Below, piece after piece: positions 7,482 to 17,695 of a stretch of DNA of 64,000 nt. Under the pieces are notes generated by a model that had not been told where the DNA came from, made no database searches, and was given only the letters and a program-made list of their open reading frames with translations. Source of the DNA: the human T2T-CHM13v2.0 reference genome, Homo sapiens; assembly GCF_009914755.1 (NCBI RefSeq), contig NC_060925.1; one strand, given 5' to 3'. The position numbers and the translations under genes were made by a program. Positions within the stretch are counted from its first letter, which is position 1. Each line of letters opens with the position of its first letter.

Positions 7482-7558
7482 TCAGACTGTTGGGTTAGCA
7501 TCTGGCCTTCGACAGGTCACCCTGGCCCGCCAGATCAGCCCCAGGCCTGACAAAAGCA
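7482..7558 (-). pseudogene. TMEM274P: Nested gene last coding exon (VLLSGLGLIWRARVTCRRPDANPTV*)
   Basis: Acceptor ttctttatcctgTAG, phase 1 entry, TGA at 7484-7482. Candidate minus-strand AATAAA at 6903-6898. Confidence 0.75.
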
Positions 7559-8140
7559 CTACAGGATAAAGAATAGGATCTCATTAAATGCAGTGGAAGT
7601 AACGTGAGAAGGATGGCTTTTCATATGCCATCCTAACCCTCCCCTCCCCCCGTTTTCTTTGCTTTGCTTTTCATACTTCTTAGCTTCTTGGATCTCTTGC
7701 TTTAAGAGGAACTAGGGTGTGGGCACAGTGGTTCACGGCTATAATCCCAGCACTTTGGGAGGCTGAGACGGGTGGATCAGTTGAGGTCAGGAGTTCAAGA
7801 CTAGCCTGGCCAACATGGCGAAACCCCATCTCTACTAAAAATACCAAAATTATCCAGGCATAGTGGCACACACCTTTAATTCCAGCTACTGGGGAGGCTG
7901 AGGCAGAAGAATTGCTTTAATCAAGGAGGAGGAGGTTGCAGTGAGCCAAGATCACGCCACTGCACTCCAGCTTAAGCAACAAAGTGAGACTCTGTTTCAA
8001 AAAAAAAAAAAAAAGAGGAACTAGAGCTTAATATTCTCCTTGCAACATCACAGTCACAGTGCTGGTTGAGTAGTTACTTGCCTCGAAGGACTGGTAAGCC
8101 TTTGACAAGGATTGGTTACTTGGGAAGTTTTCTTGCTTAC

Positions 8141-8207
8141 CTGTAGAAGTTAAGCTGCTCACCGACAGGAGCACAGACAAGTAGTAAAGTTCAGGGGTTG
8201 TTGTTTC
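8141..8207 (-). pseudogene. TMEM274P: Nested gene exon (ETTTPELYYLSVLLSVSSLTST-V)
   Basis: Acceptor ccttttctctctcaaatgTAG, donor CAG|GTAAGC. 67 nt, phase 0 to 1. Confidence 0.78.
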
Positions 8208-9252
8208 CTACATTTGAGAGAGAAAAGGTGCTATGAGGAATACTTTGTCTTTTAATCAGAATGTGTTAAAAATGTTTTGCCACAAGGATTTAAATGAAGG
8301 TGCCAATTTAGCAAGAAATAGAAGTCTTGCTGTATACTGTGCCAAACCCAATCCAACAGCTTCAGTTTTTTTTTGTTGTTGTTGTTGTTGTTTGTTTGTT
8401 TGTTTTGAGGCAAGATGTTGCTTTGTCATCCAGGCCAAAGTGCAGTGGTGTGAGCATGGCTCACTGGAGCCTTGACTTCCTGGGTTCACGGGATCCTCCT
8501 GCCTCAGCCTCCCAAGTAGCTGGGACTACAGGCACGTGCCACCAGGTCCAGCTAATTTTTGTAATTTTTGTAGAGATGGGGTTTCTCCACATTGCCTATG
8601 CTGGTCTTCATCTCCTGGGCTCAATCGATCTGCCTGCCTCAGCCTTCCAAAGTACTGGGATTAGAGGCGTGAGCCACTGTGCCCGGCCTGTTTCACTGTT
8701 GATTAATATCTTAACTACTTTTCGAAGCTCTAGTAAAGTAGAATTCACCTACAAAAACAAAAATCTCTTGTAGAATTTTTAAACTTTCCCCAGTGAAATG
8801 TTTTAACTGTGACATGTGCCTAATCAGGTATTCCATCTCCACATATCTCTTCTTTTGGTGTCAGTAGAAAATAAATATTGAAGACATATTATTTACAGCC
8901 AAACTTTCAGATTAAGATAAGCCTTTAGAAATTCTTTGTTTATGGCTCACGCCTGTAATCCCAGCACTTTGGGAGGCCGAGGTGGGTGGATCACGAGGTC
9001 GGGAGATCCAGACCATCCTGGCTAACACAGTGAAACCCCATCTCTACTAAAAAAAAATACAAAAAATTAGCCGGGCATGGTGGCGGGCACCTGTAGTCCT
9101 AGCTACTCGGGAGGCTGAGGCGGGAGAATGGCGTGAACCTGGGAGGCGGAGCTTGCAGTAAGCACAGATTGCGCCACTGCACTCCAGCTGGGGTGACAGA
9201 GTGAGACTCTGTCTCAAAGAAAAAAAAAGAAATTCATTGTTTAAAAACATAC

Positions 9253-14510: not shown

Positions 14511-17500
14511 TTACCAGTTTTTAAATTCACGTTAATTTGCGATTTTGGTGAAAAACTATTTCATGGGAATTCTGACTTCTAGTAAGGAAAAATGACTTAT
14601 TTTACACAGACTTTCTGTAATAGAAGCTGGTGAGTTTGAGTTCGGCTAATTACAAGGAGTGTTGCAGCTTCCTGTCACTCCCCCTCGCTTAAGTAGATTC
14701 TCAGTTTTCAGATTTTTTTTTAGAATTAAAGTTATTAACAGACTGTTTCCGCTAAGAATAATTTCGAAGACAGAATCTGAAAGAACATATTAAGTAATAA
14801 TCAGGTCGGGCGTGCCTGTCACCCTCAGCCCTGCAGACATAAGCTAACGCTAGACCGTTGGGACTGGTCTCCAGGGAATCTGTAAGTTGAGACATTGGTC
14901 CCCTCATTGTCTCCTATTTAATGGCTTTCTATACCAGAAGAAGTAAGTGTGGATTAAAAGTTAAGCTCAGTTTACCCACAGCTATCTTCACTATATTGAG
15001 ATTTTTGGCTTTTCAAAGAAGTGAAGTAGGTGATTGCCCTTGGTAATAGGGGCAGAAAACATGGGGCAGGCTGCAATTAACATTTTACATTACTCGTTTA
15101 GTGATGAAATAGCTTCCAGAAAACAAATTCAGGTTCTGTTTGGTGATAATGTTACATTTAACTACAGAGATAAAGTTTTAAACATAATGATATTTTGTGT
15201 TTTTAGTAGAGATGGTGTTTCTGATTGAATTGAGATCCATTGCATTCTAATAAAATTCTATCTAATAATACTTCAATAAGAATATTAAAATAGCTACTAC
15301 TTATTGTTCTCCCATTATTTAGCAGGCTTTGTTGATACTGATTTTTTGTTTTGTTTTGTTTTTTTTTTTTTTGAGACAGAGTCTTGCTCTGTCACCCAGG
15401 CTGGAGTGCAGTGGTGCGATCTCAGCTCACTGCAACCTCTGCCTCCTGGGTTCAAGCAATTCTCCTGCCTCAGCCTCCTGAGTATCTGGGACTACAGAAG
15501 CACACCACCATGCCCGACTAATTTTTGTATTTTTAGTAGAGATGGGGTTTCACCATGCTGATCAGGTTGGTCTTGAATTCCTGACCTCGTGATCCGCCCG
15601 CCTCTGTCTCCCAAAGTACTGGGATTAGAGGTGTGAGCCACTGCTCCCAGCCTGTTGATACTGATCTTTAGGGAATCTTTAGAACCTTGGTTCCTTTATC
15701 ATGACTGTAAATTAATGTAAAACAACCTGCAAGTAATACTAAGTTATCAATATTCATAATTGGTAGACAAATGTGTCAAACATTTTACATGCATTATCTA
15801 ATTTAATATGCACAAAATCCTATGACATAGGACTGTGGTTCTCCATTTTTTTAAATGAGGAAACTGACTGTTAACTGACAAACTGAGAGTTAATCTACCT
15901 ACCACAACTTGCACAAGCAAATGAAAATTGTTACTGCTCAAAGCATTTTTGAAATTCTTTTGAGATTACGTGTACGTAGTTTCCATGGCATGTAAGAAAA
16001 TCTTGGTCGGGCACAGTGGCTTAAGCCTGTAATCCCAGCACTTTGGGAAGCCGAGGCAGGTGGATCACCTGAGATCGGGAGTTTGAGACCAGCCTGGCCA
16101 GCATACTGAAACCCCATCTCTACTAAAAATACAAAAATTAGCTGGGTGTGGTGGCGGGCGCCTGTAATCCCAGCTACTCAGGAGGCTGAAGCAGAAGAAT
16201 CGCTTGAACCCGGGAGGCAGAGGTTGCAGTGAGCTGAGATCGTGCCATTGCACTACAGCCAGGGGACAAGAGTGAAACTCCATCTTGGAAAAAAAAAAAA
16301 AAAAAAGAGGCCGGGTGCGGTGACTCACGCCTATAATCCTAGCACTTTGGGAGGCCAAAGTAGGCAGATCATGAGGTCAGGAGTTCAAGACCAGCATGAC
16401 CAATATGGTGAAACCCCATCTCTACTAAAAATACAAAAATTAGCTGGGCGTGGTGGCATGCGCCTGTAATCCCAGCTACTCAGGAGGCTGAGGCAGGAGA
16501 ATGGCTTGAACCTGGGAGGTGGAGGTTGCAGTGAGCCAAGATTGCACGCCACTGCACTCCAGCCTGGCGACAACGAGACTCTGTCCCCCCACCAAAAAAA
16601 GAAAAGAAAGAAAATCTCACCATTAACTAATCATTCTAACTCCCTTCTTCACTGTAAACTATTAAATTCACCTTGATTATTTTATTAATTGGGTTTAGCA
16701 CTGAATAACTTTAGGGGATTCACAGAAATCAAATATACCCTCCAAAGACAGATTTATCCCCAGTGAAGGTACTCAAAAGAATATGCAATTTCAAAATATA
16801 CCCCCAAGAGTATTTAATGGCAGCATTGTTGGAACAAGAACATAGCTACATGCTTAAAGTTATTGTTTTGAAAGGAATAGCACCCTTTTAGAGGTGTAAA
16901 TCCTGAGAGGTGGTGAGGTCAGCCATGTTACTTAACTCTTAGCCAACACAGGTTTAATACTGAGCATCCTGAAATATGCGATAGGGAAAGCCAAACAGAA
17001 TTACTATTGTTTTCGAAAAGTTGATTTTTAAAAAACTGACTTTTTAGCCAGGAGTGATGGCGTGTGCTTGTAGTACTAGCTACTTGGCAGGCTGAGGTGG
17101 GAGGATCTCTTGAGCCTGGGATTTGAAGGCTGCAGTGAGCAATGATTGTGCCACTGTACTGCAGCCTAGGCAACAGAGCGATACCCTATCTCTAAAAAAA
17201 ACAAAAACAAAAACAAAAAAACCCTGGCTTAATGTTATGTTAATATTTACATCTCAGTGTTTTTAAAACATAAAGATCAGTTATTTTGGCCAGGTGTGGT
17301 GGCTCATGCCTCTAATCCCAGCACCGTGGGAGGCCAAGGTGGGAGGATCACTTGAGGCCAGGAGTTTGACACCAGCCTGGGCAACACAGCGAGACCCCAT
17401 CTCTACCAAAAATAATAATAATAATAAAGATCAGTAACTACCCAGGCCAAAACGCAGTGGCTCAATTTCAGCCTCCCGAGTGGCTGGGACTACAGCCACG

Positions 17501-17621
17501 TGCCACTGTACCCAGCCCAAGATTAGTAATTTTAAAATTAAAAGTAAATTTTAAGCCTCAAGACTGCCAGAGAAAGAAATGAACTCCTTATTGTCACAGT
17601 GAGCTGAGGAGGGACACTTAC

Positions 17622-17695
17622 AGCCTGAGCTGGTGAGTTCTCAGCAGCCAGCAGTGCAAGCGATAGGCCGTGTGGGCCAAACAAAAGTGAATCAT
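17622..17695 (-). pseudogene. TMEM274P: Candidate first coding exon of nested gene (MIHFCLAHTAYRLHCWLLRTHQLR-L)
   Basis: gtcaccATG start context, donor GCT|GTAAGT. 74 nt (phase 2), matching the next exon. Confidence 0.55.

What the first reader, a model, noticed from the sequence alone, without database searches (positions are those of the whole stretch)
7482..17695. Hidden antisense five-exon membrane-protein gene inside NMNAT1 intron 1, broken by one visible nonsense codon
Seen in sequence: five short unique islands between Alus have canonical minus-strand splice sites, and their phases chain (74+80+131+67+77 = 429 nt). Product: [141 protein letters not shown]. The only stop in this frame is TAA at codon 81, mid-helix and one base from Leu TTA. 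Inference: three TM helices, a basic positive-inside C-tail (RARVTCRR), and two Cys (YC, DC) predicted on the same lumenal face, reminiscent of TMEM272-like small multi-pass proteins. Intact splice sites suggest recent loss of a gene still functional in other mammals. I recall an annotation TMEM274P here and know of no characterised function. The ORF track does not show it.
Basis: partly seen in the sequence, partly recalled or inferred. Interest (0 to 1): 0.8.

Follow-up and report, generated by a model that had tools for sequence, protein, structure and literature searches.

The report
Known dead human gene TMEM274P
This is the already annotated and published human pseudogene TMEM274P, the broken remnant of an old four-pass membrane protein gene that other mammals still carry intact, so the finding is real but ordinary.

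Summary
Five minus-strand exons with GT/AG splice sites chain into one frame, with a single internal TAA (window 9297-9295).

It is not hidden or new. It is RefSeq TMEM274P, shown in Mudge et al. 2019 (PMC6886504, Fig. 2E legend) as a human unitary pseudogene of mouse Tmem274.

- The paper reports a second lesion, loss of the ancestral second coding exon.
- I confirm that the 21-residue segment (first transmembrane helix) present in non-primate mammals and lizards has no trace in the window or the whole genome.
- So the human chain is three helices of a four-pass protein.
- The residue at the stop is Glu in chimp, marmoset and colobus, not Leu.

Beyond the paper:
- The chimp, marmoset and colobus protein models also lack that exon.
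- Each of human, chimp and marmoset has replaced 5 of 46 otherwise invariant residues. This hints that decay began before the human lineage, but it needs primate DNA to settle.
- The wider family (95 clusters, sponge to mammals) has no Pfam, NCBIfam or PDB relative.
- A stray "CrcB" label on one ortholog is unsupported.

Function is unknown. Interest is low.

The parts
17622..17695 (-). Exon 1 (ancestral coding exon 1). Starts at the ATG and encodes the basic N-terminal cytosolic stretch. The RefSeq exon begins exactly at the A of the ATG.
   Evidence: tblastn with the bat ortholog gives E 4.5e-12. The 25 residues are identical to chimp. The donor is GTAAGT.
12831..17621 (-). Intron where the ancestral second coding exon should lie. 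That exon is inferred to be 63 nt and 21 residues and to encode transmembrane helix 1. No trace of it remains.
   Evidence: The segment is present in non-primate mammals and lizards. tblastn finds no hit to it on the minus strand. A profile of the segment against six frames of window 1-20000 scores at best -4.2. Whole-genome searches find nothing more. The intron holds 9 Alu-motif matches.
12736..12830 (-). Exon 2 of the RefSeq model (ancestral coding exon 3). Encodes loop 1 with the first conserved Cys and most of helix 2.
   Evidence: tblastn gives E 5e-11. In non-primates the alignment starts at the residues encoded from 12817.
9253..9383 (-). Exon 3 (ancestral coding exon 4). Encodes the end of helix 2, the cytosolic loop, helix 3 and the second conserved Cys.
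   Evidence: tblastn gives E 3.4e-16. The search with this exon alone found the chimp protein at 93% identity.
9295..9297 (-). Premature TAA. It stands where orthologs have Glu.
   Evidence: One search gives the coordinates. One search shows E in chimp, marmoset and 16 of 18 non-primates (K in the other two). One search shows E in colobus. The paper states that the stop is not a known SNP and is unique to human.
8141..8207 (-). Exon 4 (ancestral coding exon 5). Encodes the conserved TTPELYY motif and the start of helix 4.
   Evidence: tblastn E-values run from 5e-5 to 5e-7.
7482..7558 (-). Exon 5 (ancestral coding exon 6). Encodes the end of helix 4 and the short mammalian C-terminus. The RefSeq exon ends exactly at the TGA.
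   Evidence: tblastn gives E 5.6e-8. The first AATAAA lies 579 nt further on, at 6903.

Best explanation
This is TMEM274P, the sole human remnant of an old, uncharacterised family of small four-pass membrane proteins. It no longer encodes a working protein.

Shown:
- The five exons are orthologous to the intact 162-163 aa TMEM274 of other mammals.
- The human copy carries a premature TAA in helix 3 where all compared orthologs have Glu or Lys.
- It lacks the exon for helix 1.
- It has replaced several residues that are invariant from lizards to mammals.
- The human genome holds no second copy.

Inferred:
- The stop arose by one G-to-T change of a GAA codon, at 9297 on the minus strand.
- Any translated product would stop after 85 residues, with helix 2 and half of helix 3 only.
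- A spliced transcript with a stop three exons before the end would be a target of nonsense-mediated decay.
- Even read through, a protein without helix 1 would place the first Cys loop on the wrong side of the membrane.

In species that keep it, the protein most likely sits with both ends in the cytosol. The two conserved Cys would then lie in the two outer loops and form a disulfide. In non-mammals there is also a cytosolic Cys-rich tail that ends the protein. I take it to be a structural or accessory membrane subunit rather than an enzyme or channel. That last step is a guess from architecture alone.
For: Identity and orthology:
- Exon-by-exon tblastn finds the exons.
- Chimp, marmoset and 27 other hits come back.
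- Passages of PMC6886504 name the locus and both lesions.
- Rodent models fused to the neighbouring same-strand gene LZIC support synteny.

Lesions:
- The TAA lies at 9297-9295. Orthologs have Glu there.
- The helix-1 segment is absent.
- Human has 5 of 46 columns changed that are invariant in 18 non-primates. Non-primates tested the same way show 0-3, and 11 of 18 show none.
- Human differs from chimp at 5 of 147 codons. The tree puts all of these on the human branch (0.029 against 0).

No paralogue:
- Searches of the whole T2T genome with a bat and a lizard member hit only this locus. A distant member gave only E 0.55 and 0.68.

Architecture:
- Intact mammalian orthologs have four hydrophobic segments. 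The model has helices at 19-45, 57-80, 86-114 and 121-153 (low confidence).
- Mean K+R is 3.0 + 1.3 + 3.3 in the N-terminus, loop 2 and C-terminus, against 2.1 + 0.6 in loops 1 and 3.
- The two Cys are conserved in 33 of 34 and 34 of 34 rows.
Against: - All four introns keep canonical splice sites, the ATG is intact, and there is no frameshift against chimp. The decay is slight.
- RefSeq calls the locus a transcribed pseudogene, so an RNA role is not excluded.
- Models without the helix-1 segment also exist for coelacanth (P0031, isoform X2), a gecko (P0029, isoform X3) and one distant member (P0111). A three-helix form may therefore be a natural isoform. In that case the missing exon alone would not prove loss of function.
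- The function of the intact protein is unknown in any species. The paper itself notes at best weak expression everywhere.
- My structural model is poor (mean pLDDT 51.5). The topology therefore rests on hydropathy and charge counts.
Confidence: 0.9

Rival explanations
1. The three-helix, 147-residue form is the working protein of apes and monkeys. The human TAA is the one recent event that killed it, and the missing exon is irrelevant.
For: - Chimp and marmoset models keep an open 147-codon frame with no indel between them.
- Forms without the exon are annotated as isoforms in coelacanth and gecko.
- The tree places all human-chimp differences on the human branch. That fits constraint in chimp and release in human.
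Against: - Chimp and marmoset each changed 5 of 46 otherwise invariant residues. These include the 34-of-34 Cys in marmoset (C116S) and two changes shared by all three primates.
- Chimp-marmoset identity is only 120 of 147. Chimp is less like squirrel (111 of 147) than a bat is (136 of 163).
- Removing helix 1 should flip or break the topology (inference).
- In chimp, helix 2 no longer reaches the hydropathy threshold.
- There is an ascertainment problem. Only primates whose frame happens to be open get a protein model.
Confidence: 0.25
2. The locus lives on as a functional non-coding antisense RNA that modulates NMNAT1 or LZIC. The coding frame would then be a fossil.
For: - It is annotated as a transcribed pseudogene inside NMNAT1 intron 1 and upstream of LZIC on the same strand (annotation given with the finding).
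- Splice sites are intact.
Against: - The RefSeq model runs exactly from the ATG to the TGA, without untranslated ends. It looks projected from the coding sequence rather than built from full-length RNA.
- The paper reports at best weak expression.
- There is no CpG island upstream of exon 1. CpG observed/expected is 0.16-0.20, against 0.75 at the LZIC/NMNAT1 promoter.
- No tool here shows RNA.
Confidence: 0.05
3. A chance chain of open pieces between Alus, not a gene remnant.
For: The exons are short (67-131 nt) and the region is Alu-dense.
Against: - All five exons match orthologs, with E-values down to 3e-16.
- The family profile finds 95 clusters, 13 of them at E <= 1e-30.
- The other two frames hold 9 and 6 stops.
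Confidence: 0.01

Closest known systems
TMEM274P / mouse Tmem274 (Mudge et al. 2019, Genome Res 29:2073, PMC6886504, Fig. 2E). I read passages of the text and the figure legend, not the figure.
   Same: It is the same locus. The paper gives the premature stop in the fourth ancestral coding exon, the loss of the second coding exon, an intact mouse gene, conservation possibly beyond vertebrates, and weak expression.
   Different: The paper calls both lesions unique to human. The chimp, marmoset and colobus protein models I found also lack the exon segment, and the chimp and marmoset models show replaced invariant residues. This may reflect gene models copied from the human transcript, so the conflict is open.
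Other human unitary pseudogenes found by PhyloCSF, for example PFN5P in the same paper (passage)
   Same: A single-copy gene that is intact in mouse and disabled in human, found by its coding signature. Here, no paralogue is left in the genome.
   Different: TMEM274 belongs to a family with no named domain and no studied member.
CrcB / Fluc fluoride channels (Pfam PF02537). This is the UniRef label on the alpaca ortholog P0012.
   Same: Small size and four transmembrane helices.
   Different: - No member matches PF02537 at E <= 10: 0 of 15 and 0 of 34 members.
- The model finds nothing in the human genome but rings in 11 of 14 control genomes.
- The family profiles hit no PDB chain at E <= 10.
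- A clear K+R bias and a conserved Cys pair in the outer loops argue for one fixed orientation. Fluc channels, as I recall, insert in both orientations.
TMEM272-like small multi-pass proteins
   Same: Only the general description: a small multi-pass protein with cysteines.
   Different: Not tested. None of the 29 + 37 named hits carries that name.

Membership tests
TMEM274 orthologous group | Sequence similarity over all coding exons to intact TMEM274 proteins | tested here: met
   tblastn finds five of the five human exons, with E-values from 3e-16 to 5e-5. Human is 97.3% identical to the chimp protein over 146 comparable residues.
TMEM274 orthologous group | Position next to LZIC on the same strand | tested here: met
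   In the window, LZIC ends at 296 on the minus strand, downstream of TMEM274P (annotation given). Rodent models fuse the two genes: P0132 (347 aa, with PF06384), P0065 and the label of P0025. This evidence is indirect. No ortholog DNA was available.
TMEM274 orthologous group | Exon for the first transmembrane helix | tested here: not met
   The segment is absent from the window and from the whole genome. It is present in the 162-163 aa mammal models and in lizards.
TMEM274 orthologous group | Two conserved Cys in loops 1 and 3 | tested here: met
   Both are kept in human. They are conserved in 33 of 34 and 34 of 34 family rows.
Wider family (sponge to vertebrates) | C-terminal Cys-rich tail ending in W-H-V/I | tested here: not met
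   18 of 34 rows carry the tail. No mammal does. A tail profile finds nothing in window 1-20000.
Unitary pseudogene | A disabling lesion in a gene that is intact in other species | tested here: met
   The TAA at codon 86. 29 protein models with E <= 0.01 exist in other species. Whether those proteins function is not shown.
Unitary pseudogene | No functional parent or paralogue in the same genome | tested here: met
   Whole-genome six-frame searches with P0009 and P0032 hit this locus alone. P0058 gave only chance-level hits. The search works exon by exon, so a very distant paralogue could escape.
CrcB / Fluc (PF02537) | Match to the family model | tested here: not met
   0 of 15 and 0 of 34 members match at E <= 10. 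The model gives 0 hits in the genome, with 11 of 14 control genomes positive.
TMEM272-like | Sequence or profile similarity to TMEM272 | not tested
No TMEM272 sequence was obtained.

The most novel reading that the evidence does not exclude
The decay, or a change of use, of TMEM274 began in the common ancestor of monkeys and apes, not in the human lineage as published.
- The helix-1 exon is missing from the chimp, marmoset and colobus models.
- Two invariant residues are replaced in human, chimp and marmoset alike.
- Marmoset has lost the Cys that is invariant in all 34 other family rows.
- Even so, chimp and marmoset keep a 147-codon frame open.

Either these are lucky survivors of about 40 million years of neutral drift, or anthropoids kept a three-pass derivative that only humans then lost.
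Probability: 0.3. Interest if true: 0.3.

Novelty: already known. Interest (0 to 1): 0.12.

Why it matters
It matters little on its own, because the locus, its name and both lesions are in RefSeq and in print. The modest remaining value is threefold.
1. Humans lack every member of a membrane-protein family that runs from sponges to mammals and that nobody has studied. Mouse Tmem274 is therefore a clean entry point to ask what was lost.
2. The timing of the loss (human only, or all monkeys and apes) is open to a simple genomic test.
3. The automatic "fluoride transporter CrcB" label on one ortholog should not be propagated.

Tried and rejected
- **Mouse alias.** I recalled Gm572 as the mouse alias. 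The literature search shows Gm572 is the C1orf127 ortholog, so I dropped it.
- **Supplements of PMC6886504.** A search for TMEM274 gave 0 occurrences in the files searched. Files 1 and 8 were not searched and the PDF cannot be read here, so they may still list the locus.
- **Structure.**
  - The first AlphaFold job, on 19 tetrapod sequences, gave mean pLDDT 51.5 and pTM 0.30. That is too poor for a fold search, so I ran none.
  - A second job on the deeper 34-row alignment never ran. It was interrupted twice (and 49/52). After that the machine did not answer.
  - No fold-level comparison with CrcB or any other four-helix protein was therefore made.
- **Giant-virus lead.**
  - The ESM Atlas listed a look-alike cluster whose few recorded members are 60% Nucleocytoviricota.
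  - Scans with single members P0093 and P0131 found no relative.
  - These environmental members closely resemble the sponge protein P0133 (by eye), so the viral label is doubtful.
- **Known families.** Pfam and NCBIfam gave only scattered chance-level hits. The most frequent family matched 4 of 15 members and 3 of 34, and none that I saw reached its cut-off.
- **Second literature search.** A search for "protein 274" plus "pseudogene" returned 4 papers, none about this locus judging by title.
- **Not possible here.** I could not compute dN/dS, date the lesions on primate DNA, check population alleles or look for RNA-seq junctions. No tool here holds other eukaryote genomes, variants or expression data.
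Full report
**1. The observation**

I read the five stretches on the minus strand, then spliced and translated them in a script.
- RefSeq's chain differs only in using an acceptor 15 nt further upstream for the second exon (12830 instead of 12815). Both acceptors are AG and both keep the frame. 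RefSeq's chain is 444 nt, 147 codons plus the stop.
- All four donors are GT and all acceptors are AG.
The terminal TGA is at 7484-7482.
- The other two frames of the spliced chain hold 9 and 6 stops (my count).
- The interval is Alu-dense. 20 of 102 matches to a recalled 23-base Alu motif fall in 7482-17695.

**2. What it is**

The annotation attached to the finding already names TMEM274P.

A full-text search found 3 papers with that word.
- One is Mudge et al. 2019 (PMC6886504). I read the passages around the name and the legend of Fig. 2E. It says:
  - Conservation may reach beyond vertebrates.
  - Expression is at best weak in all species examined.

**3. Independent check with sequences**

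Exon 3 read through the stop with X retrieved a 147-aa chimp protein (93% identity, E 7e-18) and a red colobus model.

The chimp protein then retrieved 29 proteins with E <= 0.01 among 59 candidates. They are marmoset, bats, alpaca, raccoon dog, squirrels, armadillo, rodents (two of them labelled Tmem274), cattle, lizards and coelacanth.

tblastn of six of these proteins against the window finds every human exon on the minus strand. For the bat protein the E-values are 3e-16, 4.5e-12, 5e-11, 5.6e-8 and 5e-5.

Where human has TAA, the orthologs have:
- Glu in chimp, marmoset and colobus;
- Glu in 16 of 18 non-primates, and Lys in the other two.

The likely event is therefore GAA to TAA at 9297 (inferred, since I saw only proteins), not a change from Leu TTA.

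**4. The missing exon**

Non-primate mammals (162-163 aa) and lizards carry a hydrophobic segment of about 21 residues between the end of exon 1 and the start of the next human exon. Hydropathy shows it is the first of four membrane-spanning segments.

In human there is no trace of it:
- tblastn finds no hit on the right strand.
- A profile of the segment searched against all six frames of window 1-20000 scores at best -4.2.
- A six-frame search of the whole T2T genome with the bat or lizard protein finds only the known exons.

The intron that should hold it (12831-17621) has 9 Alu-motif matches. Alu-mediated deletion is plausible but not shown.

From the alignment, the exon would be 63 nt and in frame. 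That is why skipping it leaves the frame open.

**5. A point where my data sit uneasily with the paper**

The chimp, marmoset and colobus models all lack the segment, and all use the same upstream acceptor as the human RefSeq model.
- This could mean the exon was lost before the split of New and Old World anthropoids.
- It could equally mean that those models were built on the human transcript. A gene model is not a genome sequence, and I had no primate DNA.

Independent of the exon, the primate proteins look relaxed:
- Each of human, chimp and marmoset has changed 5 of 46 columns that are invariant in 18 non-primates. The same leave-one-out test on the non-primates gives 0 to 3, and 11 of 18 give 0.
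- Two changes, P18L and L78F, are shared by all three primates.
- Marmoset has C116S at the one column that is invariant in all 34 rows of the wider alignment.
- Chimp-marmoset identity is 120 of 147. Chimp is less like squirrel (111 of 147) than a bat is (136 of 163).
- On a maximum-likelihood tree, the path from the placental root to the primates is about twice that to bats, alpaca or raccoon dog.

Against early death:
- Chimp and marmoset keep the frame open with no indel between them.
- The tree puts all five human-chimp differences on the human branch (0.029 against 0).
- Segment-less forms are also annotated as isoforms in coelacanth and a gecko, and in one distant member.

There is also an ascertainment bias, because only species with an open frame get a protein model. 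I leave this open and give the early-decay reading about 0.3.

**6. The family**

A profile of 19 tetrapod sequences searched against 1.84 billion representatives found 95 proteins at E <= 1e-3, 54 at <= 1e-10 and 13 at <= 1e-30.

A word-index search with a 34-row alignment returned 37 proteins at E <= 0.001. Apart from a few automatic labels (Tmem274, LZIC, and the CrcB label on the alpaca entry), all named hits are called uncharacterized, hypothetical or unnamed. They come from sharks, a ray, a smelt, coelacanth, lizards, mammals and the sponge Ephydatia, plus unnamed environmental sequences.

The typical member is about 181 aa:
- a conserved basic N-terminus;
- four hydrophobic helices;
- a Cys in loop 1 (33 of 34 rows) and a Cys in loop 3 (34 of 34 rows);
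- a Cys-rich tail that ends the protein in W-H-V/I (18 of 34 rows).

Mean K+R counts are 3.0, 1.3 and 3.3 for the N-terminus, loop 2 and C-terminus. They are 2.1 and 0.6 for loops 1 and 3 (30 of 34 rows used; 4 rows longer than 200 aa were dropped). By the positive-inside rule both ends are cytosolic and the two Cys loops face outward.

Every mammal in the alignments lacks the Cys-rich tail, and the window holds no relic of it.

**7. What it is not**

- No member matches any Pfam or NCBIfam family convincingly. Hits are scattered and at chance level, and the most frequent family matched 4 of 15 members and 3 of 34. NCBIfam gave nothing better.
- The family profiles hit no PDB sequence at E <= 10.
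- UniRef labels the alpaca ortholog "Fluoride ion transporter CrcB". PF02537 matched none of the 15 + 34 members scanned. It found nothing in the human genome while ringing in 11 of 14 control genomes.
- The fixed charge bias and the outer Cys pair also speak against a dual-topology channel of that kind (inference).

**8. No second copy**

The whole genome was searched with a bat member and a lizard member, and both hit only this locus. A distant member gave only E 0.55 and 0.68. Humans therefore have no intact member of the family, as "unitary" implies. A very distant paralogue could escape an exon-by-exon search.

**9. Transcript anatomy**

- The RefSeq model runs exactly from the ATG (17695) to the TGA (7482), with no untranslated ends. 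This suggests a model shaped on the coding sequence.
- Upstream of exon 1 there is no CpG island. Observed/expected is 0.16-0.20, against 0.75 at the LZIC/NMNAT1 promoter.
- The first AATAAA lies 579 nt past the stop.
- I could not look at RNA data.

**10. How it works**

In human it most likely does nothing. A translated product would end after 85 residues, and the stop three exons before the end should mark the RNA for nonsense-mediated decay (established rule; not tested here).

In other animals the protein is a small four-pass membrane protein with cytosolic ends and a probable outer disulfide. Outside mammals it also has a cytosolic Cys-rich tail that might be lipid-modified or bind metal (guess). 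I commit to a structural or accessory membrane subunit rather than a transporter, with low confidence.

The only structural model I obtained is poor (pLDDT 51.5). The deeper job never ran because the structure machine failed (listed under Tried and rejected). No fold comparison was made.

**11. Verdict**

The interpretation needs three corrections:
- There are two lesions, not one.
- It is a four-pass protein, not a three-pass one.
- The ancestral residue at the stop is Glu, not Leu.

The one open question worth a quick follow-up is whether the decay predates humans.

Noticed in passing
Alignment A3; window 1-20000: All mammal TMEM274 models end in a short tail (…VTCPRPDAKPTV in most). They lack the Cys-rich C-terminal tail ending W-H-V/I that lizards, sharks and invertebrate members carry (18 of 34 rows). 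The window holds no relic of it. Mammals as a whole may have lost a terminal coding exon long before the human lesions.
   Followed up: partly
window 7482 and 17695: RefSeq NR_158969.1 begins exactly at the ATG and ends exactly at the TGA. It is therefore a coding-sequence-shaped model without untranslated regions. There is no CpG island upstream (o/e 0.16-0.20), and the first AATAAA is at 6903.
   Followed up: partly
P0132, P0065, P0025: Several rodent gene models fuse TMEM274 to the neighbouring LZIC (ICAT domain PF06384), or carry its name. These are read-through or mis-joined annotations of the two same-strand neighbours.
   Followed up: no
P0012: The UniRef entry for the alpaca ortholog is labelled "Fluoride ion transporter CrcB". 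No sequence test here supports this. It is probably an automatic mislabel.
   Followed up: yes
ESM Atlas: One look-alike cluster (183 aa, 124 members, score 0.93) is recorded as 60% Nucleocytoviricota among its 15 members with a phylum. Two scans of viral contigs with family members found nothing. The environmental members resemble a sponge protein.
   Followed up: partly
P0007: The red colobus model carries an inserted stretch with a ribosomal L6e match (PF01159) between the third and fourth helices, and a different N-terminus. It looks like a chimeric or retro-insert-containing model.
   Followed up: no
PMC12528612, table passage: Mouse Tmem274 appears in a table of promoter-proximal ATAC-seq elements enriched in inner hair cells, in the column "not HC-enriched". 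It is a faint hint for where to look for expression.
   Followed up: no
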